Assembly: GCA_013115125.1 (NCBI GenBank)
Contig: JABANN010000243.1
Coordinates: 1-48,154 of the forward strand
Length of the DNA stretch: 48,154 nucleotides
DNA from: Perkinsus olseni
Taxonomy: Eukaryota
Direction of reading: 5' to 3'
The notes under the pieces were generated by a model. That model had not been told where the DNA came from. It worked only from the letters and a program-made list of their open reading frames with translations, and did no database searches. The translations under genes and the position numbers were made by a program. This document shows, one piece after another, positions 3,504 through 37,027 of the stretch (position 1 is its first letter; every line of letters begins with the position of its first letter).

Positions 3504-5054
3504 ATGTCGAACGACACCGTCGATCATGGGCCTGCCGATGCGACAGCAATGGCAATCACGGTAATAGGGGCGGGGTGGTTCTCAATCTCCCAGCATACTT
3601 GCCTTGCGGGGTATTTTCTGTGGACTTTTATGATGGTTGGAGAACTTCTTTTACATGATGTGGAGGATGCTCCAAAGTGTGCCCTGGACTCCCTCTTCGT
3701 GTCAGTTCGCCAAAACGATTGGCCGCGTTGCGGACTTCGCCGTGGATCTCGCTGAGCAGCTACACAAGGATCTAGGGTTGGAATATAAGCCAGCTGGACA
3801 CGGCAAGAAGACTAAGAAATCGGTATGTGATGTTATCGGGTTGTGAGCTACGAAGTTCGTTCGTACGAACTGTTCGTAGTTCGTACTTTGTAGCCTATGA
3901 GTATGGCGGTTCGTAGTACGAACCGTTGTACCTTACTCGAGTTGTACCGTGACGCTTCACGCGAATTTGAAATTCGAAATCAAATAAAATTTTTAATCAG
4001 TTCTAGCAATTTTGAATGTCAACTTTTATGCCGTAAGCTTGGGCTGCCTGCTCGAGTGATGCGTGTCTTGTACTGTCGGAAGCAATGAAAAATCCGAGGT
4101 GACAATCGGGGGGGGGATATCTCTTTATGGTGGACCTGCCTGATCCATCGAGAATGGATTCGGAGCACTGCCAGCTCAAATCGGCGCTGCGGCGAGTGCA
4201 GCAATTTGTCTTTTGGCGGTGATAGGGAAGTTCAGCCGAAAAAATCGGCCTGTTGGCAGCCCTTCTGTGGTCTACAAGACGCGACGTAGCTCGGCTGCTC
4301 TGCGACTTCCGGAACGCGCAATGCTGGGCTTGATGTAAACTGCGTTGCTATTGTATTCAAGGTTCGAGACCCGAACATGCCTAAGAAGCCGAAGACTGCC
4401 TTCTTCCTCTTCTGCGACAGCGAGAGAGAGAAAGCTAAGGAGAGGGTGAGTGCGGAGCGGAGTTGACTTGTCTATTGGAAGGTCCCGGGATCGAGGCGGG
4501 GATGTGCCATTTTTCAGGGAGATGGCCCTCCGACCACAAAGGACATGGCGGAAACATGGAAGACTGCTGAGGACTCTGTAGGCATTCTCCGCGGCGCAGC
4601 TCGGCCGTCCTGAGACTAGAATCCATCTTAGGTCAGAACGCACTACAGTAATGAGCAGGCGAAGCTGAAAGAGCAATACGAGAAGGTCAGTGGCTACGAA
4701 TTTGGGGTGTTCAATAGACTGCCTCTCCTGAATTCCCGCGCCGCTCCCAGGATTGAATTTAACGTGTAAAAGACGGTCCTGGGAGGGCTGTTGGAACTCA
4801 GGAGAGATCTGCTCAGCACGCGGATTATGGCCGGACTCGACTGCTTTGCATTCGCCTCAGGATATGAGCGCTTACTATGCTGGAAAGCAGCACAGCGGGA
4901 GCGGCAGTCCCCCACCTTCTAAAAGAGAGGTACGCTCGGCGCTGGTGGTCACAGTGGTAGCTCGTCAAGGGTCGCTTTTCAGAGCCCAGAGACCTCGAGT
5001 GCGTCGGAGGACGAGGAAGAGAATGCTCAGGTTCCTAAGAAGCTGAAGCGGTAG
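3504..5054 (+). CDS. HMG-box (NHP6/HMGB-like) chromatin protein, multi-exon
   Basis: Spliced MSNDTVDHG...|FAKTIGRVADFAVDLAEQLHKDLGLEYKPAGHGKKTKKS|VRDPNMPKKPKTAFFLFCDSEREKAKE...MAETWK...|VRTHYSNEQAKLKEQYEK|DMSAYYAG...|SPETSSASEDEEENAQVPKKLKR*. Classic DPNxPKKPxTAFFLF HMG signature. Confidence 0.85.
4704..4806. repeat. Intronic hairpin element, copy 1 (MITE-like or structured ncRNA)
   Basis: Arms ctctcctga..ttcc..ctcccagga / tcctgggag..ggaa..tcaggagag around loop ttgaatttaacgtgtaaaaga. Near-identical core at 36794-36916. Lies in HMG intron 4686-4860. Confidence 0.85.
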
Positions 5055-5370
5055 ATTATTAACTACTTCCTGTTTCCTTATGCACATGTGAAATTGTGTA
5101 CGAGTGAGTTAATGGGAGGTCTTTTACTGAGCCACGTTACTACACTACGCAAGAAATTTTTTGGGAAAAAACAAAATTTTTTTATTTTTCCGACAGCTGT
5201 GAGCCGATCAGTGGATGGCATGTTACTGTGTGTGTTCCGTATATACTAGAGAATGATTTATAGTACCACTAGGGGCAGGTACCAGTTGAACTGGGCGCAT
5301 AGCGTAGTGGCCGGGGTCTCTAGGTAGGGAATGCTTGCCGGCACACGCTGGGTCTTTTTTGTCTAATGTA

Positions 5371-5715
5371 CTATCTCGTTGTAGTAGGTGAAGTTGTAGA
5401 ACACAACATAAGTAGTTTGGGCTCATAGTGAACGAGATAGAGCGAGAAGTGATTCCATTTCTCTGAGGAGTTTTGCGGTATCCTAAGGATGCCTTTGGAG
5501 CTCGCCTGACACTCTTGACCCCGTCAACTGCGCGGCCTTCGGGTTTTTGGCGAAGGTCGCCTCAAGGGCGACCTGAGTCGGGTTGAAGGGGGTTACGCAG
5601 TACTCCAAAGATAGAGGGACCGATCGGCTCGGAAGCCAGCGCGCTATCTCGTTGCAGGAATGTAGTCGTAGAACACAACATAAGTAGGTTGGGCTCATAG
5701 TGAGCAAGATAGAGC
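5371..5715. repeat. Pair of ~73-bp direct repeats (5371-5443, 5644-5715), each closed by an inverted repeat, flanking a structured spacer
   Basis: Shared ctatctcgttg...gtagaacacaacataagtag(t/g)ttgggctcatagtga..agatagagc. Copy 1 has a perfect 10-bp IR ctatctcgtt/aacgagatag. Confidence 0.85.
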
Positions 5716-6065
5716 AGATAGTCATGAGTAGATGAGAGAATGGGTTGATAATGCGAAGCTAGTATGAGCACAGCTCAGTTGTGCACTACTAGCATTGAGT
5801 GTGCGAGAGGCAAGCTTGGAACTTTGGTATCGACTTATGCAGGGCGAGCGGGTTCCTCCTGACTCTCTTCCGCGCACTAACGAGTGACTAATCAATGGGC
5901 TTAACGCTGCAATCCGGAAAAAATTTTCACAAATTTTGAATTTATTTTCTCCCATGGAAAGATGAACATTTTTCTCGCTTCAAGTCAAGGGCTTGAACTC
6001 GACTTGCAGGTGCATTCTCTCGGTCAAGGTTCTTGATATCAGCTTTTCATTGTTGTCCTTTTTTC

Positions 6066-7560: not shown

Positions 7561-8765
7561 GGCCCTAGCCCACAAATTGAACGTAACGCCACGCTCGCTT
7601 GACCAGGCCGGCGATTGAAAACTTCCTGCGGCGCTTGTCGATGGCGTTTTTTATTTGAGATGAAGGATCTTCGCAGAAGAGCGTTTAGCAGGGTAAAATG
7701 CGCACTGAGCCGACGCAGCAGGCACCGAGGGCCGGGCGCGGTAGCGCGCGCCCGGTTGATCTATAGCGTTGACGCTAGTGGGGTGTTCCAGCACTCCCCT
7801 TTAGGTGGAGTGTCTTGCTTCCTTTGGATCGTAAGTTGCGATCGTTGTTAGGTTTCTTTGAGTTTTATGCACTCTCTCTTTTAAAAAAACCCAGCCCGCT
7901 CCACCCGGGTTGGTCTCACGATACCCTTGTGTGGTGTGCCGCCTTGCGCGCTGCCCATGGCCGTAGGTCGTGTACAGCGAAGTGCGTCCACGGCCGGTTC
8001 TCCGGAGGCGTGGCGCAGTTGGCGGCCAGATTGAGGCGATCTGGCGATCGCGTCACGATGCGCTGTCTCGTGGCGCCGGGCGTGTTGCTCGGGCCGCGTG
8101 CTTAGCTGCAGCGAATTCGTGACTCGCGTCGCGTGGTATCGCTCCGACCTCCGATCACTCTCCCACGGTTTTGCCGATCGAGGCGGGCGAGGGTCCGCGC
8201 GTTTTAGCCATGGCTTGTTCGAAGGCCCGCGCAGGTACCACCGCTTTCGGAGGTGAAAGCGGCATCTGAGGCTAGACGGAGGAACATCGAGGTGGAGTGT
8301 GTGGAGAGCTTCTACTGGGATTGGACCCGCGGGCGGCCTCGTAGATACATAGCATCTGTTCCTACGCGGATGACCCCACCTCGAATACTGGTCTCACTTC
8401 GGAGCTTCCTGAGATGGCGCCGAGGAATCATCAAAGCTACGCCGACCATTTCGGATACAGGTGGGGCCCGGCCCTTCCGGTATGACTAGCTGATGTGTGT
8501 AACGCATTCTTTTTGCGTTTGCTACTCTTTCGGGGTTTGATCCCTTAATATTTCACCAGGGCCGGACCGAACGCGTAAGTCATACGTGTGTCAAATATTG
8601 AATCACATCAATGCTTCGATTATATTCTTGTGATACGAGCTTGCCCTAGTTCCTTGAGTGGCAGCTTGCCTTCATTCTCTCTATTAGGGAGATTAGAATT
8701 GAGTAGGCTTGGCCTCGTGATGGCGTGGTAGTGTGTGATCCATGATGGATGTTCGCTCGGTTCAG

Positions 8766-10491
8766 GTATGTGCTACACAGTGATTTAGCGGAAGGCCGGG
8801 AAAATATGGAAGCCCACTACTCTAAGATGATGGTGAGCTTTATCCCTTCTTGCGAGCCGTTCGATCGTGATCAGTCCCAGGTGGTACTTCTGGCCCTGGA
8901 GACATCTCCGACCATCGAGTGGCTGTTGTTCATTGATTGTGACGCGTTCTTCACGGACTTCACCACTAGCCTCGACGCTCTTGTAGATACCTTCGCCCCA
9001 GAGGGATCAGGTGATCAAAACCCCGTGGGATTCTCCGCACTCCTCAATTGGTTTGAATTCATGTTTCCCGCCCGTGAATTGCTGTGGCTGTTGGTAGAGG
9101 TGCGCTGTTGGTGCCGGCGCCACGGTGCCACGATCTCCGCGACGTTCGCGAGCAGGAGTTCCGAGGCTCCCGCTGGGCGAGCGTAGAGGGGCTGGCGGGT
9201 ATCAGAAATTCCTTCACAGAACAAAGCTCGCATCCGACGCCAGAGTAAGTGACACTGATTGAGATCATGACGCGCCTCATCGGTGACGTCCGATTTCCGC
9301 ACGCATGCACACAACTGTCCCCTGCCTCGGGGTTGCCTAGGAATTGCCGGCATCGCATGATATGTACGAGAGAAGCTTAGTTAAGTTGGTACAAGGATCG
9401 CTCCATGAAACATACTATACCCACGCTACAGAGACGGTGAAGTACATCGACAGTTTGGCCGAGTGGTCTAAGGCGCTGGCTTAAGGCGCCAGTCCGAAAG
9501 GGCGTGGGTTCGAACCCCACAGCTGTCATTTATTTGGTCGGTCTACCAGTCATTGCTTGTCCTGGAAGTTGCGAATGTGTCGAGATATGTTCCCCGCGGG
9601 GATTGAGAGGAATCGGGGCAGCAGTTCAGTACATACTTCTCTCGGCTATCAGTTCCTTATCCTCATTGGTCTTTCGTTTCCATCAGATGTAGCATTTATT
9701 GTAGCGGAGGACAGCGGTGGCATCAACACTGGAGTGTTCATGGTGAAGGGTGGTATTGAGTGGTCGAAGGACTATCTGCGGAGGGTCAGCGTGGCGCCGT
9801 GAGAGGCATGATTCGTTGAACTGCGTCCCGAGGCTCTCGCCGCGTCGTCAGATTCACAACTGCCTGGGATCAGAGTCAGTTTTTCTGGGAGGCTGTTAAA
9901 GACAATCTTTTTGCGAATGCTTTTGAAGATTTCAGCTTGCCCAAACAAGTGAGGATACCTTTCGGAGCTCAGCCGAGCCGGTTCCGCAGCTTTATTAGTC
10001 ATTCGCAAGATACGCTTTGTTCACCAGCGGCACCTGAACGCCTTCGTGCCGCCGGCTAGTGTTGACTGGATGGCGTAGGTGGGGTAGTGAGTGCAGTTTC
10101 ACCTGTGATCGCGGTCCTCTCTGTGGAAGTGATATGAAGCTGCCTCTAAAGGTTACCCTCAGTAGAAGCTTCATATTATACCTTCAGTTTCATATCGTAC
10201 CTATCGTTCATATCGTAAGGTACGAATGGCAGCCGGGCGATTTTGTGCGTCATTTCGCTGGCTGTCCGTGGCAAGAGGAACCCTGCTTAACGATGATGAA
10301 AGAAACCGTGAGCTGCTGCATCTCCGCAGTTCATTTGGCAGAGAAACTAGGGAATCTGTGACCTCAGCTTGCCAGCATCTCATCTCTCGCTGATCTGGTG
10401 AGAAATTTTTTGTTACCGGCAGGTGGCCTTTGCCGAGGAAATGCGGCTCCTTGCAGTTCAGGAGAGAGTGAATGTCCATGTTGAACTATAA
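8766..10491 (+). CDS. Glycosyltransferase family 34 (GMA12/MNN10-like), catalytic exons
   Basis: Spliced YVLHSDLAEGRENMEAHYSKMM|VVLLALETSPTIEWLLFIDCDAFFTDF...|DVAFIVAEDSGGINTGVFMVKGGIEWSKDYLRRV...|FTTAWDQSQF...|IRFVHQRHLNAF...|YEWQPGDFVRHFAGC...VEL*. DxD, GxNxGVF, WDQ and GDFxxHFAG motifs of GT34. Confidence 0.85.
9449..9528 (+). tRNA. tRNA-Leu (anticodon AAG)
   Basis: Full cloverleaf: acceptor GACAGTT/AGCTGTC, A-box TGGCCGAGTGG, anticodon arm CTGGC-TTAAGGC-GCCAG, long variable arm, T-arm GTGGG-TTCGAAC-CCCAC, discriminator A, T-rich 3' flank. Confidence 0.96.
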
Positions 10492-18926: not shown

Positions 18927-19772
18927 TCACGTTCGCTCGGGCGCGATTATGGTATAAAACAACTTGTCATCCACAGGGTAAGCTGTTATCGGCAGCTCCA
19001 TTTCTTGCGGTATCACATCCTGTGGTAACTTGTCGGCCGCCGGCGACTTGAAATCAAAGACATATCCATCCACACGAAGTGGTTGTCCTGAAATATCTTA
19101 GGTAGACTAGGAGTCCCCGGCACGATCCCGATCACTCACCGTTGTTGATCATGTCCACACTATTCACGTAAATGAAGCCTATCTTCTCGTACGCCCACTT
19201 GGCTGGGTCATTAGGAGGCCATACTGCCAAGTATGCTCCAGCGACTTGCGGCCACCCCTTCTTGATCTGGAAAACTATCGTTCTTGAATGTGAGGACTAG
19301 ACAACTTACCCAAGCAAGTAGCCTTGTAATCATATATGTTGCAATTCCGTTCCTCCGACAGTTTTTTGTCACATTAACATCGTGTATTTGGAGCAACGTT
19401 GGATACCTTGGTACGCTCACTAGAATGAATCCAAGTGTGGCGACCGTCAATTCAGTAGAATTAATAGAGGCGGCTTGAGCCTGAGATACGCAAGGATTAG
19501 TCCGTCGTGATTGGCAGGCAGCAGTCCCATGCAATGAACGACGTGAACCCGGCGTGATCTTTCACCTCTGTCATCTTAGCATAGATTTTCGTAGCCTCCA
19601 TTATGACACTGCTTTGATCTCCAAAAGTGCTAGGCAAGAATTCATAGTGGAGTTGGGCAGGGTCAATGTTTATATTCCTTGGTGTACTCTCGGGTTGTGC
19701 CCTTCGTAAACTAGAGACGATCCACGGCAGCAGCCCAGCGCATAGGAGACTAGGGACGCTAGGGCACAGCAT
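18927..19772 (-). CDS. GNAT acetyltransferase with N-terminal signal peptide, copy 1 (4 exons)
   Basis: MLCPSVPSLLCAGLLPWIVSS...|...LQIHDVNVTKNCRRNGIATYMITRLLAW|IKKGWPQVAGAYLAVWPPNDPAKWAYEKIGF...|GQPLRVDGYVFDFK...ERT*. Motif A (RRxGIA) and motif B (NxxAxxxYEKxGF). Confidence 0.85.
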
Positions 19773-20261
19773 GAAGGTAACAACAACTGCACAACTTTTG
19801 GAACTTGTTCACATTGTAGCTAGGGGTGTACCGAGATGGAAGTTGACTGGCGCGCGAAAAAGGGGCTAAAGTATCACCGCGACGCTTCGAGCGGAAACGA
19901 GGCTACTATGACCGCCACGAGTCGTAGCCCATGAGATGATGGCCTCCTCCGCTCGGCCGATTCGATCCGAATTCGACCACGTCGGGCGTTAATGAGTGGT
20001 CGATCGTTAATGAGTGGTCAATAAGGCTGATAACAGTAGCCCGACTACTGTACACAGTTCAGAGTAATAAGTGATACAATTATCAAACGGTTAACGTCAG
20101 AGTCGGGAAAAACGAGACGTTCCGCGATTGTCAGCACTTCATCATTTGCGTGCTTGCCAGGCAACAAACGTAACAATATCCGACAGATGCTGATCCAGCC
20201 CTCATCAACTCCCTGAATACCACGAAAAGTTGGCTGTATTCAAGCGTTCGTGGAGCGAGCT

Positions 20262-20847
20262 TACTTCCCCTCTATGAACGAACCTATTCTCTCGTACAGC
20301 CTCTTGGCCGGTTTATTGTCCTCCAAGACTCCAAGGTATGCGCCAGCGACTTGGGGCCATGCCCCTTTGATCTGGGCAGCGCTACCAGATCGGGAGTGAA
20401 AACGACTCAGGAAAGCTCACGTATGCAAGTAGCCGCTTGATCATTTCTGTTGCGATTCCTCTTTCCCTCCAGTCCAACTCTACACGAACAGCGAATATAT
20501 AGACCCACCTTTCATGCTGAGGTCTAGTCGCGAGACCATATCCAAGGGAGGCAGCCAGAATCTGAAACACTCATGGGCTTCTCTGTCAGGATTGAGGAGT
20601 GCCAGTGCAAAGTAATGGAGGATTGGAAGCCGCCTGGATATCTTACCTCGGCCTTCCTGGATATAGGGGCCAGGGCTTCGAATGTGCCAACACCGAATAG
20701 ACCCCCGACGCCCTCTCTGAATGTGGCCGGCTGAAACCGATATTCGAGCTGGGAAGCATTAAGTCTGGGTGTGTTGGGGTGGAGGCTTTTGATGGATAAG
20801 ACCATCCAGGGAAGCCACCCCGCGAATAAGAGATTCGGGAGTCTCAT
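20262..20847 (-). pseudogene. GNAT acetyltransferase copy 2, probable pseudogene
   Basis: Exons 1-3 closely match copy 3 (WRERGIATEMIKRLLAY|IKGAWPQVAGAYLGVLEDNKPAKRLYERIG). A 1-nt deletion changes GGC TTC (GF) to GGT TCG, and no homologue of the last exon follows. Confidence 0.7.
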
Positions 20848-22504
20848 ACGCACAAATTGTGCGGCACAATGGTGGCTCAGCAACTGCATGGACCACGCCA
20901 GAGAATGACGAGGAGACGAATGAGGAATAAACCAAGGTGCGCAGATCATCGTTGGCCTGACGGTCAGTAGTATTCCAGGGTACTTCGCATGATGCGAAGT
21001 ACTCTATAGTATTCGACCCAACCCAATAGTATCGATGCGAATCGCATCGATAGGCGGCCTATCATACGCCTATCATAGGGCCTCACCGCATGGAAGTCAA
21101 TCGGCACGCGAAAGACTGCAAAAGGTCGGGCGACAGCGATTCTGCTCCTTTCGCGCCGCGGAATCCGCTACGTCGGGCAGCTAGCGAGTAGCCGCTGTCC
21201 GCTAGAACTACGAGGAACCTCGAGGGGCTCATCCCTGGAAAGGAAGAGTCCTCGAGATTAGTCGCCCTCTGCAAGATTCCTCGTGAAGTTTTTGCGGTGA
21301 CACTCACTCGCACGCCGCAGGGCCTGCACAGTACAGGCCGCACTGGGAGTAGCACTGTTCGGGAGTTGCTCGTCACGAAGGCCTCCTGTCCATAGTTCAT
21401 AGAAGTGTGAGTAGCAGCTTTCCTCGCAGCAGCCTTCGCCCGTCTTGGAGATTTTCTAGTGGCATGTCTCTCAATCGGGGAGCAGCTTCCTAGGGTTCTC
21501 GTGCCGGCGTCAGAGGCTCTTGAGAAATCCAAATTTTCATATTTGTTTTGGGAGTTGTAGCAAGTTGCTGCTAGCAATGTCGATGTCCTGACTAGCCGCT
21601 ATTCAGGACATGAGTATCGCTAGCCAATAGCACGCTTCGTACCCTCCAAGACTTCATTCATCTGTATGCCGAGGTCTGGCCCTCAGTCTCGCCTTCATTC
21701 AGAAGACAGATTCGAAGATAGTCCGAGTGACGGAAACCCTTCATTGTCACACTCGACAGGCGGGGCGCTTGCCGAACAACATGGCTCGGGTCTAAGACCC
21801 GGGGTCTTGCGCTATTCATCAGTGAGCCTCCAGCGACGCAGTGGAGTTGTTTGAGCTGAGCCTTTCTACTTTCATCCTCGACTACACAGCTTTACCGTTC
21901 TCAACGCTCCCCAAGGATGTGATATCGCCCTATTGAATCTCTTGCCCCTCTGAGAAAGGATTGCTCAGAGAAGAAAACCTTACGTGATGCTAGGCCGTTC
22001 CGCAGTCCGAACGCAGAGCGAAATGATGTGGTAGTTTTTTCCTTCAAGCGGAAGAGTCGTCTTGCCCGACTTGAGCGTTGATGAGTGGTCAATCGTTGGG
22101 CTGATTACAATAGCACGGCTACCCTATGCGGTGTCACATAATTCCTCTCCCATTATCAGGTGAGTTCAGTGTTCAATGACCATATTTTCAGCATACCATG
22201 TTACAAAGTTAGCCGACTTTGCACTGATTTTCGCCGTCAGCTCTCAACCGGCTCGCGACGCGCAAATATTCTGCTTGGTCAATTTCTCGGCTTCTTTGTC
22301 CCATCTTTTGCTCACTCCAATCGTTCGCCAGCGAAGCGAAAAAGCGTGAAATATTTCCTCTGCGAGACCATTTCTCTGATACTCATTTCGCGTTGAACAC
22401 TAGTGATCCACCCAACACTGATGGAACTCCAGTCAGTAAACACCATCCTCATCACTATTCTCATGGCGGGAATCACAGCGCTCGGAATGCCAGAAAATTG
22501 GAAG

Positions 22505-23304
22505 CTACTTATTTCCTCTCATGGGTAAACAGAACATCGAAAAGACGTTCCCCCACAACATCGTTTGTCATGGGCAGAGGCACTACTTGCTGAATTAAAT
22601 TCTTCGGCAAATTAGCAGCCGATGACGAATTGAAATGATAGATGTATCCAAGCATCAACGAAGGAATCTCAGGGATATATACCTAACGGGAATCCGGTGG
22701 CACCGAGCATTCCCTGACTTCTAGAACTTGCAAGGCAAGCTTACTTCCCCTTCATGAACGAAGCCTATTCTCTTATATACACTCTTGGCGCGCCCGTTCA
22801 ATGGCAAGACCCCAAGGTATGCACCAGCGACTTGGGGCCATGCCTCTTTGATCTGAGCACCAGATCGAGAGTGGAAACGACTCAGGAAAGCTCACGTATG
22901 CAAGTAGCTGCTTGATCATCTCTGTTGCGATTCCTCTTTCCCTCCACTTCGTCTCTACAATAACAGCGAATATGTAGACCCACCTTTCATGCTGTGGTCT
23001 AGTCACGAGACCATATCCAAGGGAGGCAACCACTACCTGAAATACTCATGGACTCATCTGCTAGGCTTGACGAGCGACAATGCAACGTAGTGAAGGGTTG
23101 GAAGCCGCCTGGATATATCACATTTGCCTTCCTCGATATAGGAGCCAGGGCTTCGAGGATGCCTCTGTCAGCCCCAACTATGGCAGGCAAGAACCGATAT
23201 TCAAGCTGGGAAGCGTTCAGACTAGGACTGTTGGGGTTGAGGCTTCTTATGGACTGGGCAATCCACGGAAGCAACCCCACCAGAAGCAGGTTAGGGAGTT
23301 TCAT
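22505..23304 (-). CDS. GNAT acetyltransferase with N-terminal signal peptide, copy 3 (4 exons, intact)
   Basis: MKLPNLLLVGLLPWIAQSIRS...|VVVASLGYG...WRERGIATEMIKQLLAY|IKEAWPQVAGAYLGVLPLNGRAKSVYKRIGFVHEGE|VYIPEIPSLMLGYIYHFNSSSAANLPKNL...RGNK*. The last exon is homologous to that of copy 1. Confidence 0.85.
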
Positions 23305-23712
23305 ACGGACATTCATGGGTCAGCAACTGCGTCGACGGTCCCTGAGACCGCGGGAGAATGACGAGGAGACGGATGCGGAGTAACAGAGGATGTGCAGCGT
23401 ATCGTTTACCTTACTGTTACTCGTATTCCAGGTTACTCCGGATCGATGTGCCCTCACCATCTCTTTCTCTCTCTCTCGCTCACGGCCGCTGTTCGGCCAG
23501 GCGACTCTGCAAAGCCTCGGAGGATTCGACAGAGTTTATAAGGTCAACAATGGAAGTATAAAGAGGCTGACCAGGCCTTGATAGGGAATGTGACGGCCAG
23601 TAGGCCTTAGTCTGCAAACTATACATAGTACACGACAATCAGTGTTATCGTCGGACCAGAGTAAGAAATGTCTTCATTATTCGATAATACAATAGTAGAT
23701 AATAGTACAATG

Positions 23713-24356
23713 TTTTTTTGTTTTTTTTCTTTTTTTCTTTTTTTTCTTTTTTTTCTTTCTTTTTCTTTTTCTTTTTTTTTCTTCTTTTTGTTTTTTTTCT
23801 CTTCTTTTTCTCTTTTTTTTACAACAACTTCCTCCGGCCGCGGACAGGCGGCACATCACAGGCCAGTCGAATCCGGCGCTCCCATACTGTCCGGTTTTTA
23901 GCATCACCGGGTCTCAGACCTACATCATTCATATCTTGTTTCACCAATTCGATCCATGCCTGTCGGGGCCTGCCGGGTATTCTGGAACTGCTTGAGTGAA
24001 CACGCGGGTTCCAATTCAAGAGTCTGTTGACGATGTGGTCGTCAGGTGCTCTCAATAGGTGACCATGCCATCTCAATCTCCTTGCGCGTAATACGTCTTC
24101 GCATGCAGGCGAACGTGTCCTCACATAGAGCTCACGTGATGGTAGCCTAGTCATTGGAGCCACGCCCAGGACTCGCCTCAGACATATATGGTAAAACGTT
24201 CTGTACATTTGTTCCTCTTCCTTATTGATCGCTAGTGCTTCCGAACCATAGAATAGTGAAGCAAATACCACAGATCTCATGATTACCATCTTTCCGTCCA
24301 GTCCGATATCATGGGACTTCCATATGTCCCGGAGTTTGTGTAGGGCTGCACCTGCA
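23713..24356 (-). mobile_element. 5'-truncated non-LTR retrotransposon (RTE-like LINE), 3' end with A-rich tail
   Basis: AGAALHKLRDIWKS...SLFYGSEA...CLRRVLGV...RARRLRWHGHLLR...GRPRQAW...NRTVW matches the C-terminus of RTE-clade reverse transcriptase ORFs. The TAA stop runs into a ~108-nt A-rich tract (T-rich 23713-23820 on +). Confidence 0.9.
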
Positions 24357-24754
24357 GTACGGAGCAGGGGAGCGAAGGACGCAAATGCCCGATCGACAGT
24401 CGTGCTTTACCCGGATAAGTTTACGGAGGAGATAAACTTCAATCGATTCATTTATTACTCAGGGAAACATAACAAATACCGTCGATTAAGTGTACGTGTA
24501 TGAGCAGATTCTCAACTACATTAACTACATTCTCACGACATACCTAGCCGGCAGTTCCGAAGCCTCTCGCCTCGGATACGACGTTTGGAGTCATATAGAT
24601 CGAGACAGGTCTGAATCGATAAGATTGTCTACATCGATCACAAAACTATTTAGCGTATTTGATATGAAGGCGATTCGTTGAACAAGTTTATCAGATCAAC
24701 GGCTTGTGAGGCAAGCCTAGTCTGGTCGGCTGACGCTGTCAGAGGCTGTCAGCC

Positions 24755-26013: not shown

Positions 26014-27508
26014 TCTTCTAGGACATAGCTCAGAGCTATGAGCCGCCTAGCTCAGAGCCGGCTTAACTCAAGCCGGTAGTCGGCGTACTAGCTTGGCGGC
26101 GACAGTCGGGACACTAGGTGTCCCACTGTGCGCACAATGTAACACGGCATCTCTCCGCGCCGGTTTTAAGAAAAATAAATTCACTCCTCATGTCGCGTTT
26201 TCGCTGGGTTGAGGAATAACCGAGTGAGGGCGAGATTGCAAGATTTTCTCGATAGGGAATGTTCGAAGAGCGGCGGAGAATGGTTGGTGGCAGCTTACGA
26301 GAGATCCCTCATAGATTTCGCAAGCTCTGAATGAGAACTTACCCGCCACTCTGAAGCGGTTTTCCAGTGGTTGGAAGGTTTATAAATACATGGTGTCGAG
26401 TTCATAAGCAAACCAATCTCCGCTTGCTCGGTCTTGGTGCGAGACTTTCCCCTGTCCTCTGCTTTCAGTGGAGCCTGTAGTTTTTCAACTCCCCGTCGAA
26501 GTGTGGTCATGATGACCTAGTCATCAATGTTGTCTTTGGCGGCGAGTACTTCGCCATTGTCACGGTTATTGAATTTTATCGCCGATTTCAATTCTCTCAT
26601 CAAGTTCTTCGAACTGTGGTGGTTGAGTTTGTCTGAGTTGCAATCGGCTGCGGTCAAATCGTAAAGTATTAGCTGTAAAATTCAGGCGAAATCATTCACC
26701 GTTTTCTACGTCATCCGTTCGTGCTTTGCACCGATGCAAGGAGCCTGGCTATTAAGGCTCTTTACTGGGTTTCTCAGGTTGCCTCAAGTTCGAGCCCCGA
26801 TTACTGCGTGATGAAAAAATCTCGATAGCTAAGATCAGATTAATCGTAACTGTGTACCCACCAAAATTTTTCCGAAAATACGGGAAAATTCCAAAAATAT
26901 TAGGATTTTTCAGGGGGGAAAAGTTCGGATCAGAAATTCCCTTTCTCTTTGCCCCACCATGGCGATGCATGCGGGGCAGTTGATCTCTGAGAACAAGCCT
27001 GATCCTGACGAGATTCTGCAGCTGCCGGAGGGCGATGAGCATTTGCATGGCGGAGAGAGAAGGATGTAATGATGGGGTGGAAATTTGGTAATGATTGTCC
27101 GTTTTTTTACGATTTTCGTAATTGTTGCTTTCTCTGCTTTTCGCTGGGAGACCAAGTAGTTTGTTAAAGTTATTATTTTCCTCGCGAAATTCTCGGCAAG
27201 ACTGACTATCATTAATATACCCAATAGAGTCCATAGCTGTCTGTCGTCGCGGTGTGTTGAGTAGGCTGAGAGAGGGAAACGCGCATGTCAGGGGTTCTCA
27301 GAGTCAACAGTTGGTGAGGAAAACGGTTTTCTTCAAAATATGAAATTCATTACTAGGTCTTCGGGACGAAGGTGCGGGGCTCGCGCGACGTCCAGTGTGC
27401 ACTTTACTGTGCGTGAGCCACCCGATTGTCTATAAAAAACTCTCACAAGAAATGCTCGGAATGTGTTGAACACCAACGACGAACAACAGTAATACTGCGA
27501 TACATATT

Positions 27509-28510
27509 ATGAGTAGTGATGTCAAGGAGGGCTCAGAGTCAACAGTTGATGATGAACACGATTTTCTTCAAAATGTGAAATTCATTACTGAGCGAGTGCT
27601 ATTTGCGGAGCGCTTCATCCCGTATCGTGATCTTCGCGCTCCAGCGAGGTTGGAATTTGATGAGTTTTCGTCGAACTACTCACGAATCCGTAGTTACTAC
27701 GAGCCCGAGCTTCGTCAAGATAATACGGGTACGTTTACTATATGGCTGGAGGACCACACGGCCGCACATGCCTTGCGAACGGAACTCTTGCGAAATCGAC
27801 AAGTCAAGTTCGCTGGCTATAAGGTGACGATCGGGAGTATCTTTTCGTCTGTGCGAGGTTGGGATGTTCAGGTGCCACATCCCTTGGAGAACAAATTGTT
27901 GATGAGAGTGCAAGTGACGTCGCGTGAGTTGGGAGGGGGCATTCTGGCGTGGAGACGATGTCTCGATTTTACCGCTAGCTGAATTTGCGGACATTTTTAC
28001 TAGGATTTTACTGACAGCGAAACGACCGGGGGTTTTCTGCTGGATATATCGGCCGCTACGCTGTGTTGCTCAGAAACTACCCCAGTAGAGGCTATGAAGG
28101 AAGCGTTGAAGTCGCTGAGATCGAAGGGCGATCAGGTACTACCGGGAGGAGGTATCTTCTCTATTGCTCGACCTAGTTTCCGTTTTCGCATTTTTAGTAT
28201 TTTTAACGCGCTTAACCGATCTTTATTACACATCGCTTCGTCCAGTATGAGGGTGAACCGGTTTTTGAGGTGAATTCGTTGAGAGGTTCGTCACCGGTTA
28301 GGACGTATCCTTGACGCGTGCTGATTATCATGGCAATTATAGGTAGCTTCCTTAGAGGTTGATTCATGAGTTTTGCGGAAAAAAGATACGACATGGAACT
28401 GTTTGTGTTGTTGATTGCAGTTGGAGAAAGAGTTCGATCGGTCGTTGAAGGCCTACCAAGGGATGTCTGGAACCGGCGTGACTGCGGCTGCAGGACGGAT
28501 GGGCTTCTGA
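27509..28510 (+). CDS. RPB11: DNA-directed RNA polymerase II subunit RPB11 (4 exons)
   Basis: NTGTFTIWLEDHTAAHALRTELLRNRQVKFAGYK|VPHPLENKLLMRVQVTS|QTTPVEAMKEALKSLRSKGDQ|LEKEFDRSLKAYQ...GF*. EDHT and FAGYKVPHPLE signatures. Confidence 0.92.
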
Positions 28511-29523: not shown

Positions 29524-32500
29524 ATGACCACCGACAATGATGATTTTGTCCGCCCGGCCGCGGGACGCTGCAGCAGCGATGCGGAAGGTAGTGGAGAAGG
29601 GCGGCGCTTCTGGGGGTTGGTTTGACTCAATGGGTATACTAGTAGCACGTTGCCTTCTCAGTTATACTTCTGCCCGTTCAGTAAGATTTGGTATGAACGC
29701 GTCTGGTCTCGTTCACTAGAGAGAATGAGAGTACGAGAAATGCTAATCGGTGGACTCTTTTCCGTGATATGGAAAAAATGAATTTTTGACTTGGCGAAAA
29801 ACGTCATTTACGCAGTACGGGTGGAACTCCGGTTATTATTGATAATAGAATTTTCAAATTGCGCACATGTTGGTAGAGACGTGAATTTACCTCCCCGAAA
29901 TGGAATAGGGTTTTGAGCTCGGACGCTGAGAAGACCGTACAGTTATCGAACTTCGTATCATCGAAAGCCTGAGCTTAGGATTCTGGTAATCGCTGTTTGG
30001 TCTTCAATCGTGAATCGCCGTGCCTGGCGGAGTGTGTGAAGTTACCGGTGGAATGGAAATTCCTTTGTGATGAAGAGAATGGGGTCAAACTCGGAGGAAG
30101 AAATTTCCCGAAAATTCGGGCTTACCATGTGACAGTGCAGGATAAACGCGACATTCGGCTTTTAACATGCTTCTACGAGTTGGCATTCTTGAGTGTTTGG
30201 CACCGTAGGAAAGGAGTTTCTCGAGTTAGGAAGTTGATTTTCTCTTCTTATCGAGGACAGCATTAGCTCGAGCGTTGAGCCTCGACGACGTCCACTCCTC
30301 AATAGTAGCTTCCCCCAGGCATCTTACAGGGTACAACAGACACGTTTCTCGCCACAAATGGTGCCACTAGTCATGATACCAATGAATGCTTCCGTGCACT
30401 TTCGCTGTCGATACATGTTTGATTTTCGCTTCTCTTCCCCAGCGCCTCCCGCCCGGTCGTCGAGACCGCCGAACTTGACTCTTCCAGCTCCCACGGAGGT
30501 ACCGGGTCAACTGCCACATCGAGGGAGGACCCTGGTAAGGTTGATGAGAATCTTTGGAAGCTTATGAAGAGTTCGCAGGCTCTTCTGGTGGTCACGACGC
30601 TGCTGTTGAACTTTGACCACGGTGCGGTTCCGGCGGCTTTGGTTGACATTGCGGAGGAGATGAAACTTAATTTCACAGAACAGGTTTTATCGGGGCGTCG
30701 AGTGCAGTGCTGATACCAACTTTTATTGAATTGATTCGCATTGAAGTGATAGCGCCTCGTGAGTTGAAGGTGGAGTGGTATGGGAATAAACTTGTAATTA
30801 AAAAAATAAAAAATATAATTCAAAAAATAATAAAAAAATTCGCAGCACTGCTATTGAGGCGCGTAATTACCGGAGAACGAGGGAATCTCCGCAATACCAA
30901 CAATCTCGCAAATCGTGACTACATAGCGCATCCGATCATCCGTGGTACAGCCGGCCATCGCCGCAGCCAACAGCCATTTAAGGTTGGGCGAAGATAACCG
31001 ACGCTCTAGAGTGAATTGTTCATGAAATCTCTCGTAGGCAGAATTTCTCGGATGGAAAATTGGTAAATGTTCAAGAAATTTGTCGCTGTAAATTATCGAA
31101 TTAATATCATCGGAGATATCTTTCGCTGTGAGTCGATCTGCGATGAGCTACAGTACAAGGCTAGAGGAGAATCTTTGGTGGTTCCAGTTTGAACCCTGTA
31201 CGCCGTTCATTGGCGATATCCTTTTGGTATTTTTTCAGTCACTTTTGGGAGCATTGGTATTTGCCGGTTTAACGGTAGGGTCGCCGGTTGCAGGATATGT
31301 TCTGCAAAGATACTCGCCGAAGATCATCATAGTGGTAATAATAGAGGGGCTCGTCAACACCAATGCTCATACGGAGCTACTGGGAGATCATCTTTATGAA
31401 ATCTCTTTATTGACGGTTCTCATGTTTGAAACGGGAAGCTGGCTGGGGGGGGCGGGTTTTTTTTCGTCGGTATTGACCTCGGGAAAAGAAGGAAAATTAT
31501 TTTCCCGAATTGGAATCGGTTTGGATTTTCTTCCGTTGTTGATATTTTTTGTCAGATATCTTTGACAGTGGAATGCCTGGCGTTGTGGCTGTTCAGTATC
31601 AGCAAGACCAAAGGTTTGGTGTAGATCTTGATGGCCACCCTTGCGCGCATCGCGAAGATTCTTTCGTTCAGGTACATTTTTCGGTTTATTACAGGAGTGA
31701 CGCAGTCGTTTCCCATAATTTATGTAATCAAAATGGAAGGGAGAGTTTACTCATCAGTTCTACGAGGGCGTAAAAACTAAGCTCACAATCGCGTTGTAGT
31801 TTGTCCTATACCGCAAAACTGGGGATCTTTCGTGAAATTATTCTTCTTAGCGGATAGAGCCTCGTCGGTCAGCATCGCGAAAATGACGCTCTTGTGATGA
31901 GGATATTGATTACGCGAGTAATGGCGATTGGTTAGGTTCTCGCGGGAAACGCGATCGATGCTTAGCTACGCTGTAGTTTTTCCTGTGTGAATCCAGCACG
32001 GGAAGAGGATAACTTTCCGCGAAGACAAATTTTCGGCGTTTTGCTGTTTACGAGAAAAGCAGCGCAGCAAAAGTTTTGCGAACACGGACACGAATGAAGA
32101 ATTTTTTCTCAAGAAAATTTTCCTGACTGATGGGTCCAGATCCTATTGTTCACGTGAGTCGTGGAATCGTAGTGGGAAATGGGGGGTATAGTTTTATGGT
32201 CAGTCGCCGGGGAGAGCTCGTCGGGTGACGAAATCAATTAGCGAAATAATTGTGCTACGTCAGAAGAATGATATAAAAAATCTTCGCTGTGCGTTTCGTG
32301 GATACGGTCGTTCAGGTTCCGGTGTGGGTCGACGAGTTCGCCCCGATTGATTATCAAACTCAGTGGATGGGATATGTCCAAATTGCAGTTGCAGGCGGAG
32401 CGATGCTGGGATATCTTGTAGGTTGACCTGGTACTTGGTGGAGTTCAAAGATATTTCGTCTTGGATGCATCTTATACTAGGAGAATTTTTTCAATATCGA

Positions 32501-35500
32501 TTACGAGGGCGAGCGCTTTTTGTTTAGGTAGCCGGTATAGTAGCACGCTTTGGTGGCTCGGTGTACCTGACGTGGCGGTTCAATTTCTTCCTCCAAGCAG
32601 TGTTGTTTCTGCCTCTGCTGCTAGGCTTCATACTGGTGAGTGTCTAAGCCAATCGATCGTCAGGGCGCGCGCTTTTTACAAACATGTATGTTTGTTCAGA
32701 CCAAGAAGAAGTTGATTGATGTCCCGATTGATCATTTTGAATTTGGCGAATTTGCGAGTCGGAGCTTGTAAGTTTTCCCAGCGGTGGTTTTCAGTCAAAA
32801 GAATTGAGTAAAAATTTAAAAAAATTTGAAATTCGCACTGGGATCGGTGAGAAGAAATTGACGCGGCGGAAACGATGTTGTCGGGGCCAATTGGCTAGTC
32901 TGAGGTAAATCTTGCTATCTTGGTTTATCTTGCTCTTTCCGTGTGCTAACAGTGCTTGCAAGAATAGATTGATGCTCAGAATACTGGAGTAAAAGTGTGG
33001 AATTTTTGGTTGGCTTGCGGGGTTTCTGTCAAGCACCTACTATGTGCCAGTTCGATTTGCAAATGGCATTTATGCTCGTATGTCACTCTTGCGACAGAGT
33101 CTCGGGATGAATCATACTTCAAACGGAAGGCAATGATGATATGAATCCGAACAGTGACCAAGTTCAAATCGATCAACCGTTTCGCAAAAGATATCACAGA
33201 AAAACAGTTTCGCGCGAGAAAGTACTGTGCCAATTTCGATATGCAACGCAACAATCATAGTAGCACTGTGAATGGGGTGCATCGATAGACGAGCGATCGG
33301 TGATAGAACTCGGTAATTGCCATTTTCGAATGAATAATATGGCGAAGTAAATTTTAAGTGAAGGTACTGATCGCAAGTTTGACTGGGTTTTGGGCACGAC
33401 CTCTTATTAGGATTTTTTGTGGCGCATAGTGTTCATGTCATTTCTGAGGATATATGAGTTCCGAAAAATGGAAGAAAAAATGGGAAAATGGTTTCGCAAT
33501 TGATTTCTTTTTTTTCCGACTTTTCCATTTCCTCAACTTTTCTATCAGGGGAACCTTAGGTCGACTCTGGCTCTTCTCAGACAGCGCATGCCGTCGTTTG
33601 GAGGTCCGACGCCTCGCCGGCGGTCCTCGGTTCTAGCGTCATTTTCTCCGGGACCTCGTCAGAGTTTGCTCGGCTCCGGCAAAGAGCATCACCCGCCGAA
33701 AGGTTTTGGTGCCCAATTGAAACGCCTGCTGTCATCTCCACTGTAAGCGGGTCATTGCGGATGAATTTCGTGGCGCGGGGTAAAATTCCATCGGCTAGTC
33801 GCATCCTATCGGTATCGGGTTTATGGATGGGCGTGTGAGAAAGATGGTTCCATTTTCTTTGGTTTTTTGCTTCACTCGTCTTTTTTACATACGTAGTTTT
33901 CGGGAGGACATCAGCCGGGTTCGAACCTAGGCACGGTCATTTTTCCCTCATTTATGACATCACCCTGATCGATCAAGATTCACTGGAAGGGATCTCATTG
34001 GATTAGCTTTCATGTCCATTGGACATTGTCCAAGGAGGAAAATACCCGAGCGGAGCGTTGATGAGAATGCTGAGAAAAATGACTGCTTTTCGAATTTTTG
34101 CGTTTTTCGCTATACCGTGCGTTTCTCGGTGTTTTTATCGCTGTGAGTAAAATAACGACGAAGTGACGCAGACAACAAAAATACGCAGAAAAACTTTTCT
34201 TTCCGGGAGACCGCAAAGAGCTAACCGTTTCAGAAGATATTGCTTGGGGGATCGACGTGTGAATGGAGTTGAATACGCCGGGTATTTTGCGTGTGAGCGA
34301 TAACCATACACCCATATGATGAGAAGAAAGCAGAGTTGGGAAAAAGTTGGTATGTTATTATTAAAATGGAAATTGAGCAGATTTCCTTTCGTATCGAACC
34401 CAACTTGGGGTGAAAGCCGTTTCGCACTTTGCATGATACTGTGGGAGTCACGGTTTATTTTCTGTCCAGTGCACGGATCGACCTTGGATACCTTTTTCAG
34501 GTTCGTCTGTATGACTTTCGCGCTCTGCGCTTTGTACTTCGTAGTCACGGGGATTCAGTACTGGGTTATGCAGTAGGTCGAAGCTGGCTTTTCATGAGGA
34601 CAAAAGATACCTTTTTCTCGCTAACCGTATTTCCGTTAATCTTGCGCGGATTGGAATTTATTTTTTTCCGATAACGTGTGCCCCTCGGTGTTCTTTTTTC
34701 TGGAAATCTTGGTGTGAGGTTGATGCTTGCGCTACACGCACGCGAAAGATTCTCAGGTGGTGCGTTGTCGTTCAGGTACTGTATGGTGATTTTCCACGTC
34801 TCTCGGATAGCGGTTGTTCTCTTCTTCACAGTTGTTAGCTCGACGGCCCCGACCTTGGGAGTGTAAGATTCGGTGGAGTATCTTTTTTTTCGTAACGACC
34901 TAGCTCAACCTCGGTGTGTGAGCTTATACTCCAACGCCGGAGCCGGCTTGAATGACTTTCACCGATGTGAAATGTGGTTTTTATATTTTCCTCCGTTTTC
35001 AAGCTCGAGAGAACCTTTTCCGATTCCTTGTAAACGGGATGGAAATCATCCCACACTGTCCGTTGAAGGTAAGAGAAAATCGCCAGGTTTTTTAGGAAAA
35101 CTGTTGAAGGATTTTTTTTCATTTTGCGTTCCCAATGGGAATCTAGGTTCGGTGTGAAGATAGTATTGGGAGAAGGAAAGGAAACCGACTGCATTTTGTT
35201 TCAGATGGTTTGGCGGATGGTCTTGTGATAAGCTCGGTGGCTACAAGGGCGGCTCCCAGTTGATATCACTAAAGCTCTCCCTGTGCTTCGCTCTGATATC
35301 GGCGGTAAGGTGGGTGAGCAGGCTAGTAGTCGGAAGATTCGGTAGTTGGAAATTGCACCCACACGGCGTAATAACGCGGCTCCGTGTGGCGTTTTTATGA
35401 GATCGAGAAGTAGTTTAAAATAGAAAAATCGAACTTGACAGTTATCCATCGGTTTTACGTAAGGGGAATTTTTACCCGAACTCGGAAATTATTACCCGAC

Positions 35501-37027
35501 TCCGTCGATTTTGGCGGCTTTTCCCGGGCGTAGTTTGTGTGTCTCAGATCATGGCTATCGCCTCGTCAATGGTCACCGATATTGAAACCTTCGTCGGAGC
35601 GCTTTGGATATGCCTCTTCGCCGGCGGCTCACTGATGCCTATATGCGTCGGGGTAAGCTTAGCGCTCGCCCGGATGATCGATTTATGGGACGATGGGGCT
35701 TGTAGAGATCCGTGGTTGAGGGACTCGTCACTGCTAGGTGACTGCATCTTGCAATCTTGCGATTTCTCAACGCGTGTGCCTTTTACGAGGAATGATAGGC
35801 TCGCGAGGAATATAAGGCTCGAGGCTGTCGAGTACTCCGGATCGTTCTTGCTCCTTGAAGATTGTTGGTAATTGTTTATGATTCTTTTACGAATTTTTAT
35901 GATTTCTTCCGATTTTTCGCGTTCTTTACATTTTTTTCGTGTTCTTACATGATTTTTTTACGATCGTTATCCGTGAATGTTCATGGCCGTTCGTATTTGT
36001 TTATGATTCTCTCACGATTTTCTATGATTTTTTTTCATTTTTTCGTATTTTTTTTGTTCTTCTATGTTTCTTCATGATTGTTATTCATGAATTTTTACGC
36101 TTTAGGTGCTCATGACCACCGTACCAGCCTACATGCGCTCCTTCAGCTCCGCATTCTCGATGCTCATATACAACTTGTTTGGCTATTTCTTAGCGCCTTT
36201 CCTGTCCGGCGTTGTGATGGATCGATTCGGGTAAGTCTGCGTCACGCGAGTTTGACCGGCGACCGTATCCATCAACATCAGGAGCCCGGCAAGCCTGGAG
36301 GGGTCCACGCAGGCGTTGGTGTACGGCTGGCGTCTGGTTACTTGGTGGTCCCTGTTCGGGGTTGGCTTTTACACGATAGGCTTCTTTACAGCAGAGTACA
36401 AGAGCAAGTATCGACGTCCGAGGGTGGACAGCCATAGACAGCCTTATCATCCAGAGAGCCTGGTAGGGGAGACTTTCTTTCAGTATGAGTTGCGGAAGGT
36501 GTGGTATGAGTTCTATTGCGTTAATTTTTGACATGATTCTTCTCAGCGCACAGCAAAGATTTTCTTTGTCTAGGTGACACCCGACTTCGGGAGCTATGAT
36601 TTGGCGCGGCAAGCTACAGCCAGAGAAGGAGAACCGCCGGGTAAGTGTTGAGAAAAAGTTGGTATCTCTTCTTTCGGCCGGGTTGTTCATGCGGGGCTCA
36701 AAACTCTATAAGGTTGCATTGGTCGGTAGATGTGCAGCAAGCTTCTCTGCAATCACCGTGACCGCGCGCCTCGAAATTCACCGAAATCAGAAAGGGGTGT
36801 TCAAAACACTACTGCCTCTCCTGGCTTCCAGCAGCGCTCCCAGGATTGAATTTAACGTGTAAAAGATGATCCTGGGAGGGCTGTTGAAGCTGGGGAGAGG
36901 CAGCGGTCTTTCGAACGTGCAGGCGTGTCATTGTCGTATCCTTGTGAAGGCTACAAATACAAAAAAATCCTATTTTTTGATCTTCACGACATCCTCTTTT
37001 TTTCTTTACTCGGTCATAAGATCATGA
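29524..37027 (+). CDS. Major facilitator superfamily transporter (Spinster-like), many exons
   Basis: Exons LLLNFDHGAVPAALVDIAEEMKLNFTEQ|SLLGALVFAGLTVGSPVAGYVLQRY, VPVWVDEFAP, FALCALYFVVTGIQYW, TVVSSTAPTLG, GGWSCDKLGGYKG, LWICLFAGGSLMP, YNLFGYFLAPFLSG, GWRLVTWWSLFG. Start and last exon tentative. Confidence 0.88.
35875..36100. repeat. Degenerate T-rich low-complexity tract (tttttatgat-like units) in an MFS intron
   Basis: Repeated ttt(t)atgatt and ttttttcgt words. Confidence 0.7.
36794..36916. repeat. Intronic hairpin element, copy 2
   Basis: Arms gttcaaaa..ctgcctctcctggcttc..ctcccaggat / atcctgggag..gaagctggggagaggcag..tttcgaac around the same loop as 4704-4806. Ends just before the inferred acceptor at 36922. 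Confidence 0.85.

What the first reader, a model, noticed from the sequence alone, without database searches (positions are those of the whole stretch)
4704..36916. Same ~110-nt hairpin with conserved loop in introns of two unrelated genes 32 kb apart
Copies at 4704-4806 (HMG intron) and 36794-36916 (inferred last MFS intron) share a ~50-nt core with only two differences (gctcccaggattgaatttaacgtgtaaaaga[cgg/tga]tcctgggagggctgttg). The outer stems differ in sequence yet still pair (tgaattcc/ggaactca versus tggcttc/gaagctg), which looks like covariation. Both are sense-oriented, begin ggggtgttcaa and lie in the 3' part of the intron. The loop contains a branch-site-like TTAAC. Candidates: a MITE/foldback family, an intron-encoded small-RNA precursor, or a mobile splicing element. 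A loop more conserved than the arms is not what neutral MITE decay would predict.
Basis: partly seen in the sequence, partly recalled or inferred. Interest (0 to 1): 0.72.

Follow-up and report, generated by a model that had tools for sequence, protein, structure and literature searches.

The report
Foldback repeat family in Perkinsus introns
Two look-alike 120-base hairpins in introns of two unrelated genes of the shellfish parasite Perkinsus olseni are copies of a dispersed palindromic repeat with dozens of copies, most likely an ordinary miniature transposon that introns tolerate.

Summary
The two copies are real: A at 4704-4826 and B at 36794-36921, both on the + strand. They are 88% identical over 89 nt, share an exact 30-mer, and each folds into a long, nearly perfect hairpin. 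Both lie in spliced introns in the sense orientation. Intron A is 4686-4860, shown by relatives' protein and transcript sequences. Intron B is 36641-37163, shown by spliced RNA contigs.

Several details do not hold. B is not in the last intron, and neither copy sits in the 3' part of its intron. The loop TTAAC is about 95 and 300 nt from the acceptors. The main hairpin has 0 of 29 pairs changed on both sides, and the helix read as covariation is shifted by one position between the copies.

Laying DNA contigs on copy B shows a 17- to 28-fold pile-up exactly on the element, and 51 of 66 laid records fit only partly. It is therefore a dispersed repeat with dozens of copies, also present in RNA contigs.

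Best reading: an undescribed MITE-like foldback family of Perkinsus olseni. No target-site duplication or autonomous partner could be shown. A role as a small-RNA precursor is untested. It is ordinary and of low interest.

The parts
4704..4826 (+). Copy A of the foldback element (about 119-123 nt). Its 3' terminus is degenerate.
   Evidence: Model R1 scores it at 139.9 bits.
36794..36921 (+). Copy B of the foldback element (about 126-128 nt). The hairpin is almost perfect out to both termini.
   Evidence: R1 scores it at 151.3 bits. DNA contig depth on it is 17- to 28-fold above its flanks.
4742..4793 (+). Conserved centre of copy A: inner stem plus a loop of about 20 nt.
   Evidence: Only 2 differences from the matching stretch of copy B.
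36835..36886 (+). Conserved centre of copy B. Many partial matches from other loci begin at 36829-36837 and end at 36865-36899.
   Evidence: Loose ends and pieces, tables 7 and 8.
4686..4860 (+). Intron of the HMG-box gene that holds copy A (175 nt, GT..AG).
   Evidence: A P. marinus protein (P0005) and a transcript-derived protein (P0006) read straight across ...KEQYEK|DM...AY.... A stop codon lies in the read-through frame.
36641..37163 (+). Intron of the transporter gene that holds copy B (523 nt, GT..AG).
   Evidence: A joint skipping 523 nt appears in one contig each of X7 and X19 (table 5). Boundary letters were checked.
3504..5051 (+). Host gene 1: a small HMG-box protein gene with 7 exons.
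   Evidence: tblastn of P0005 and P0006 on the window. The first box exon matches Pfam HMG_box at E 0.0026, below the cut-off because it is a fragment.
31140..37422 (+). Host gene 2: an MFS-type transporter gene. Its extent is approximate and its 3' end was not determined.
   Evidence: Spliced RNA contigs cover 35547-37422. Single exons give weak, below-cut-off matches to MFS_1 (E 0.013) and OATP (E 0.0014).

Best explanation
The two hairpins are copies of a short (about 120-128 nt), non-coding, almost fully palindromic dispersed repeat of Perkinsus olseni. It is a MITE-like foldback element, most likely spread by a DNA transposase supplied in trans (inferred). Copy A landed in an ordinary short intron of an HMG-box gene and copy B in an already long intron of a transporter gene. 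Both persist because introns tolerate insertions, and the foldback keeps the extra bases folded away (inferred). That both are sense-oriented and intronic is what two random survivors in a gene-dense, intron-rich stretch can easily show.
For: Dispersed and multi-copy:
- In DNA run X1, summed contig depth is 2240 and 1330 in the two bins over the element, against about 80-86 beside it.
- 66 records were laid and 51 fit only partly.
- Listed pieces from six other contigs of 4.9-15.4 kb match 67-94 nt of the element with 8-17 differences.
- The window's own contigs break inside the centre (record 1 ends at 36858, record 8 starts at 36837).
- The more divergent DNA run X9 shows 3016 and 1785 against roughly 40-150.
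- RNA run X7 has the element in other contigs, for example a 2013-nt contig.
- Loose-end consensus in X1, X9 and X7 continues outward into the same termini as copy A (GGGTGTTCAATAGA on the left, TCTATTGAACAC on the right).

Palindrome:
- The arms pair to the ends and both strands fold.
- Copy B carries an extra segment on both arms.

Non-coding:
- A 41-aa frame open through copy A finds nothing in the protein collection.

Not tied to splice sites:
- The copies lie 18 and 34-38 nt, and 153 and 242 nt, from their splice sites.
- Intron A minus the element is about 52-56 nt. The neighbouring introns are 50, 51, 54 and 72 nt.

No curated RNA family matches.
Against: - No target-site duplication was found. 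A scan of all boundary choices gave only 3-4 nt chance repeats, with inconsistent termini in A and B.
- No autonomous partner or transposase is in the window. The terminal 11-mer occurs only at the two copies, plus two unrelated 1-mismatch sites. Of 33 long frames scanned against Pfam, none hit a transposase.
- The outermost 3-4 bases of the two ends are not complementary.
- The centre (inner stem and loop) seems better kept across the family than the mid-arms. Typical MITEs do not show this. However, it could only be judged from where partial alignments start and stop.
- The + strand has more G-U pairs than the - strand (5 and 6 against 3 and 2). This is a weak hint, not significant, of an RNA-level preference.
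- Copy number, orientation and intron bias across the genome could not be measured, because no genome was held.
Confidence: 0.72

Rival explanations
1. The family, or some of its copies, is a hairpin small-RNA precursor. It would be released from introns and cut by a Dicer-like enzyme, as in MITE-derived or mirtron-like precursors. This does not exclude a MITE origin.
For: - Long, nearly perfect stems of about 45 bp lie in sense orientation in transcribed introns.
- The element is present in RNA contigs of X7.
- Weak matches to miRNA precursor models, the best being MIR5304 at 28.1 bits against a gathering score of 75.
- A review states that BLAST searches found Dicer-like proteins in P. marinus (PMC6027434, passages read).
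- Slightly more G-U pairs on the sense strand.
Against: - No small-RNA data were available.
- All Rfam matches are far below the gathering scores, and any long hairpin gives such matches.
- In miRNA genes the stem arms are kept and the loop drifts. Here the loop is kept.
- The minus strand folds equally well.
Confidence: 0.12
2. It is an introner-like element that creates or carries introns, related in principle to the hairpin introners of the parasitic dinoflagellate Amoebophrya.
For: - Both copies are intronic and sense-oriented.
- Perkinsus branches near dinoflagellates, where hairpin-forming introners with inverted and direct repeats are described (PMC7789003, passages read).
- In intron A the hairpin base lies close to both splice sites (18 and 34-38 nt).
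Against: - The element does not reach a splice site in either intron, and similarity between the two introns stops at the element ends.
- In intron B it sits 153 and 242 nt from the splice sites.
- Removing it from intron A leaves a normal-sized intron.
- In a supplementary table of a published screen, the P. olseni row reads like the rows of species without introners (PMC9860276). The header was not seen, so the column meaning is inferred from other rows.
Confidence: 0.04
3. It is a selected cis-acting RNA structure, such as a splicing or retention regulator, shared by a set of introns.
For: - The centre is conserved (2 of 52 differences between A and B).
- An X7 contig of low depth (17.9, against about 147-160 for the exons) runs from the element across the acceptor at 37163, so some unspliced RNA exists.
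Against: - There are dozens of copies with 11-19% divergence, and some sit inside long DNA contigs.
- There are no compensatory pairs.
- The position within the intron is not fixed.
- The two host genes are unrelated.
Confidence: 0.04

Closest known systems
[quoted passage not shown]
   Same: - Short, at about 120-128 nt.
- Non-coding.
- Arms are inverted repeats reaching the ends.
- Dispersed in dozens of copies.
- Found in genic regions, including introns and transcripts.
   Different: - No target-site duplication is demonstrable from the two copies.
- The superfamily and the autonomous partner are unknown.
- Almost the whole element is palindromic.
- The centre seems as well kept as the termini.
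- No family with this sequence was found in print by sequence-word search or by Perkinsus plus MITE/foldback terms. Repbase could not be consulted.
Introner elements of Amoebophrya (PMC7789003) and introners in general (PMC9860276)
   Same: - Repeated intronic sequences with inverted repeats that predict hairpins.
- MITE-like.
- Found in a lineage near Perkinsus.
   Different: In introners the inverted repeats sit at the intron ends, direct repeats overlap the exon-intron boundaries, and the element makes up the intron. Here the element is internal to canonical GT..AG introns and is flanked by unrelated intron sequence.
MITE-derived miRNA and hairpin small-RNA loci of plants (for example PMC8862332, seen as listing and abstract only)
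   Same: A MITE whose transcript folds into a long hairpin that could feed Dicer.
   Different: There is no small-RNA evidence here, and no match to a curated miRNA family at gathering score.
Known DNA transposons of Perkinsus marinus: Dada (PMC3706591) and Merlin remnants (PMC8101967)
   Same: They show that DNA transposons exist in the genus and could supply a transposase.
   Different: - Dada has 6-7 bp target-site duplications, targets tRNA genes and lacks terminal inverted repeats (passages read).
- The Merlin copies had no recognisable terminal repeats or duplications.
- Neither paper gives termini that could be compared with this element.

Membership tests
MITE / foldback element | Short (under about 800 bp) and without coding capacity | tested here: met
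   The copies are 119-128 nt. The one frame open through copy A finds no protein.
MITE / foldback element | Terminal inverted repeats | tested here: met
   In copy B the arms pair from GTGTTCAA... to ...TTCGAAC. Copy A has a degenerate 3' end. The outermost 3-4 bases are not complementary.
MITE / foldback element | Many dispersed copies at unrelated loci | tested here: met
   Depth is 17- to 28-fold over the element in DNA run X1. 51 of 66 laid records fit only partly. Pieces lie inside six other contigs of 4.9-15.4 kb. The same pile-up appears in X9.
MITE / foldback element | Target-site duplication of fixed length flanking each copy | tested here: inconclusive
   The boundary scan found only 3-4 nt repeats at inconsistent termini in the two copies. 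More copies with their flanks are needed.
MITE / foldback element | Autonomous relative with the same termini and a transposase | not testable with these tools
   None is in the window, and no genome is held.
Introner | The element makes up the intron, with splice sites carried by it or recruited at its ends or from the duplication | tested here: not met
   The element ends lie 18 and 34-38 nt (A) and 153 and 242 nt (B) from the splice sites. The flanking intron sequence is unrelated between the two.
Introner | Intron absent at the same position in close relatives (recent gain) | not testable with these tools
   Only relatives' proteins were available, not their gene structures.
miRNA / hairpin small-RNA precursor | Stable hairpin in a transcribed region | tested here: met
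   This is not specific, because any transcribed palindrome meets it.
miRNA / hairpin small-RNA precursor | Discrete small-RNA duplex reads from the stem | not testable with these tools
   All four laid runs are contigs, which cannot show small RNAs.
miRNA / hairpin small-RNA precursor | Match to a curated family | tested here: not met
   Nothing reaches gathering score. The best score is 28.1 bits against a threshold of 75.

The most novel reading that the evidence does not exclude
The foldback family is more than junk. Its hairpin may be maintained because folding hides about 120 nt from a spliceosome tuned to 50-70 nt introns. Excised introns may then hand a ready-made stem to a Dicer-like enzyme. 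That would make it a perkinsid source of intron-derived hairpin small RNAs and a possible stage before the hairpin introners of Amoebophrya.
Probability: 0.1. Interest if true: 0.6.

Novelty: new member of a known kind. Interest (0 to 1): 0.22.

Why it matters
As found, it matters little. It adds an apparently undescribed short palindromic repeat family to the sparse catalogue of mobile DNA in Perkinsus, a notifiable parasite of clams and oysters. It also explains why some introns in an organism with 50-70 nt introns are longer.

The family could serve as a marker for strain and haplotype comparison through insertion presence or absence.

It would matter more if the family proved strongly biased toward introns in the sense orientation, or if it produced small RNAs. 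In that case it would bear on how hairpin-bearing mobile elements and introns interact in the lineage that leads to dinoflagellates.

Tried and rejected
- Whole-genome search: not possible, because no genome is held for the window.
- More copies from public collections: exact-pattern scans found nothing. These were two of metagenome contigs, one of genome contigs and one of viral contigs. This says only that those collections do not hold this organism.
- Mis-annotated exons carrying the element: the 41-aa minus-strand frame of copy A found no protein.
- Earlier notes of this scan: no look-alike stretch, no notes on this genome, and only unrelated Naegleria findings under the word Perkinsus.
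- Literature by sequence words: 0 papers. For Perkinsus plus MITE, foldback or palindromic terms, none of the 12 papers listed (of 2,443 holding at least 2 of the 5 terms) holds the word Perkinsus.
- Further diverged copies in the window: model R1 with filters off found only A and B. The two 1-mismatch hits of the terminal 11-mer, at 7780 and 43132, are unrelated.
- Branch-site idea for the loop TTAAC: rejected on distance from the acceptors.
- Strand asymmetry of G-U pairs: too few events, many shared by descent, so not significant.
- Metatranscriptome run X19: it laid a single spliced contig and nothing on the element. Lack of cover is not evidence.
- Intron B in X7: the part upstream of the element has no cover. 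This is not evidence either.
- Empty orthologous site in the divergent run X9: no contig bridges the site, so it could not be judged.
- Two copies in 48 kb against roughly 30-60 pieces in about 42 Mb looks like clustering. However, the window was picked because it has two copies, so nothing is inferred from this.
Full report
**What is there.** The window carries two copies of one short element. Copy A is at 4704-4826 and copy B at 36794-36921, both on the + strand.
- They align at 84% mean column identity over 151 columns that include flanks.
- They share an 89-nt gapless block at 88% identity (family D7).
- A 30-mer from the centre is exact in both copies and occurs nowhere else. None of 100 shuffles gave a match at up to 3 mismatches.
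- Similarity begins exactly at GGGGTGTTCAA in both copies and fades within about 10-15 nt after the last stem pairs.
- Each copy folds into one long hairpin. The 116-nt stretch of A gives -53.8 kcal/mol (z -5.2) and the 131-nt stretch of B gives -70 kcal/mol (z -8.0). None of 200 shuffles folds as well.
- The reverse strands fold about as well (z -6.5 and -8.9). That is what a DNA palindrome gives, and it does not point to an RNA.

**Organism and host genes.**
- An exon-bearing frame at 8746-9186 finds only Perkinsus olseni proteins. One of them, P0004, is on record on a contig of 48154 bases, which is the window's length. The window is therefore P. olseni, an alveolate parasite of clams.
- Host gene 1 is a small HMG-box gene.
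  - A P. marinus protein (P0005) and a transcript-derived protein (P0006) read ...NEQAKLKEQYEK directly followed by DM(N/S)AY....
  - tblastn places these two pieces at ...4685 and 4861....
  - So 4686-4860 is a 175-nt GT..AG intron, and copy A lies inside it, 18 nt after the donor and 34-38 nt before the acceptor.
- Host gene 2 is an MFS-type transporter.
  - Single exons give only weak matches to MFS_1 and OATP, below the cut-offs.
  - One contig each of X7 and of the metatranscriptome run X19 joins 36639/40 to 37163/4, skipping 523 nt with GT..AG ends.
  - Both also show the neighbouring introns of 453, 51, 111 and 50 nt (table 5).
  - Copy B is therefore intronic, 153 nt from the donor and 242 nt from the acceptor. 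One more intron follows, so this is not the last one.

**It is a dispersed repeat.** No genome is held, so I laid contigs of four public runs on 35400-37800.
- In DNA run X1 the summed depth is about 80-86 along the stretch but 2240 and 1330 in the two bins that cover the element.
- 66 records were laid and 51 fit only partly.
- The listed pieces come from six other contigs of 4.9-15.4 kb. They match 67-94 nt of the element with 8-17 differences.
- The window's own locus is split into two contigs that end and start inside the centre (36858 and 36837), as happens where words are shared with other loci.
- A more divergent DNA run, X9, shows 3016 and 1785 against roughly 40-150.
- X7, which holds spliced RNA, shows 934 and 629. 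It carries the element inside other contigs, for example one of 2013 nt.
- Where partial matches stop, the loose-end consensus continues into the same outer sequence as copy A: GGGTGTTCAATAGA and CTCTCCTGAA on the left, ...ACTCAGGAGAGATCT and TCTATTGAACAC on the right.
- My estimate is at least about 27 contig-equivalents and at most about 60 records in about 42 Mb of contigs, counting only copies at least 80% like B.
- In the window itself, a covariance model of A and B with filters off finds only these two copies.

- Covariation. In the common alignment the main hairpin has 29 predicted pairs. 24 are unchanged, 5 are changed on one side (wobbles) and 0 are changed on both sides. The 3 pairs counted as changed on both sides lie in a small helix in the badly aligned 3' tail.
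- Mirrored segment. Copy B has an extra segment on both arms, while A has it on the 5' arm only. Arms can co-vary in this way in foldback DNA, so it does not need selection on an RNA (inference).
- Conserved loop. Between A and B the 11 differences fall 4 in 50 central positions and 7 in 39 outer ones (Fisher p = 0.20). The striking 2 of 52 depends on boundaries chosen after the fact. Across the family, many partial alignments start at 36829-36837 and end at 36865-36899. So the centre does seem better kept than the mid-arms. But the termini are kept too, and the evidence is only the ends of local alignments to one copy.
- Branch site. The loop TTAAC lies about 95 nt (A) and 300 nt (B) upstream of the acceptors, which is too far.
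- Strand preference. Sense-strand G-U pairs slightly outnumber antisense ones (5 and 6 against 3 and 2). There are too few events, many shared by descent, to count.

**Mechanism.**
- Shown: a short, non-coding palindrome, dispersed in dozens of copies, sitting inside canonical introns that are spliced.
- Inferred: it is a MITE-like foldback element moved by a transposase in trans.
- Copy A fits an insertion into an ordinary short intron. 175 nt minus 119-123 nt leaves 52-56 nt. The introns nearby are 50 and 51 nt in the transporter gene and 54 and 72 nt in the HMG gene.
- The long transporter introns carry other repeats. The 453-nt intron holds a 2- to 4-fold depth bump at about 35643-35804 and a 125-nt tandem repeat (family D9).
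- Not shown: a target-site duplication and an autonomous partner.
- Two copies both in sense orientation and both intronic is not significant.

**Comparison with known systems.**
- The element meets the size, inverted-repeat and copy-number criteria of MITEs. The duplication criterion is open.
- It is not an introner.
  - In Amoebophrya introners the inverted repeats sit at the intron ends and direct repeats overlap the exon boundaries (PMC7789003, passages read). Here the element is internal.
  - A large screen for introners lists P. olseni with the same row pattern as species without introners (PMC9860276 supplement). The header was not seen, so the column meaning is inferred from the Symbiodinium and Alternaria rows.
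- Nothing in Rfam reaches gathering score. The sub-threshold hits are generic miRNA-hairpin models.
- A review reports Dicer-like proteins in P. marinus (PMC6027434, passages read). Processing of such hairpins is therefore possible but untested.
- DNA transposons are known in the genus (Dada, PMC3706591; Merlin remnants, PMC8101967). Nothing links them to this element.
- I found no printed description of this repeat. Repbase and the genome paper's repeat tables could not be checked.

**Verdict.** The element is best read as an ordinary, apparently undescribed MITE-like foldback family of P. olseni (confidence about 0.72). The small-RNA and splicing-related readings remain possible at low probability and could be settled by a genome-wide census and small-RNA mapping.

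Noticed in passing
window 478-499(-), 2006-2027(+), 7743-7764(+), 32496-32517(-), 32652-32673(-), 35661-35682(+): A 22-nt motif (AGCGCKCGCCCKNNNGATCKAT) occurs 6 times at up to 3 mismatches, against 0.03 expected. Its flanks align only weakly. One copy begins 8 nt after the donor of the 453-nt transporter intron. It could be a regulatory site or the end of another repeat family.
   Followed up: partly
window 35643-35804: A second low-copy repeat lies inside the 453-nt transporter intron. X1 depth is 152-330 against about 80, with several odd joints.
   Followed up: no
window 35864-36082: AT-rich tandem repeat of about 125 nt (family D9, 70% identity) in the same intron.
   Followed up: no
window 20255-21003 and 22735-23443: Direct duplication with about 2.47 kb spacing, in several blocks of 72-89% identity (families D2, D6, D8, D18, D20). 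A third partial copy lies at 19178-19270 (D5). It is probably a tandem gene family.
   Followed up: no
window 23819-24406 (-): A 195-aa open frame that looks to me like the tail of a non-LTR retrotransposon protein (from recall). Pfam gives only a weak DUF6451 match (E 0.0034). A long T-rich run at 23697-23838 lies next to it.
   Followed up: partly
window 9449-9528 (+); also 1958-1983, 33917-33942, 43976-44001: A tRNA-Leu(AAG) gene, plus three further fragments that resemble a tRNA T-arm (family D11). Dada transposons of P. marinus target tRNA genes (PMC3706591). No link was tested.
   Followed up: no
window 36837-37192: An X7 contig of low depth (17.9, against about 147-160 for the exons) runs from the element centre across the acceptor at 37163, so some unspliced RNA or DNA carry-over is present in that run.
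   Followed up: no
window 27470-27982 (+): A frame with an RNA polymerase Rpb3/Rpb11 dimerisation domain (RNA_pol_L_2, E 1.1e-13). It is a neighbouring housekeeping gene.
   Followed up: no
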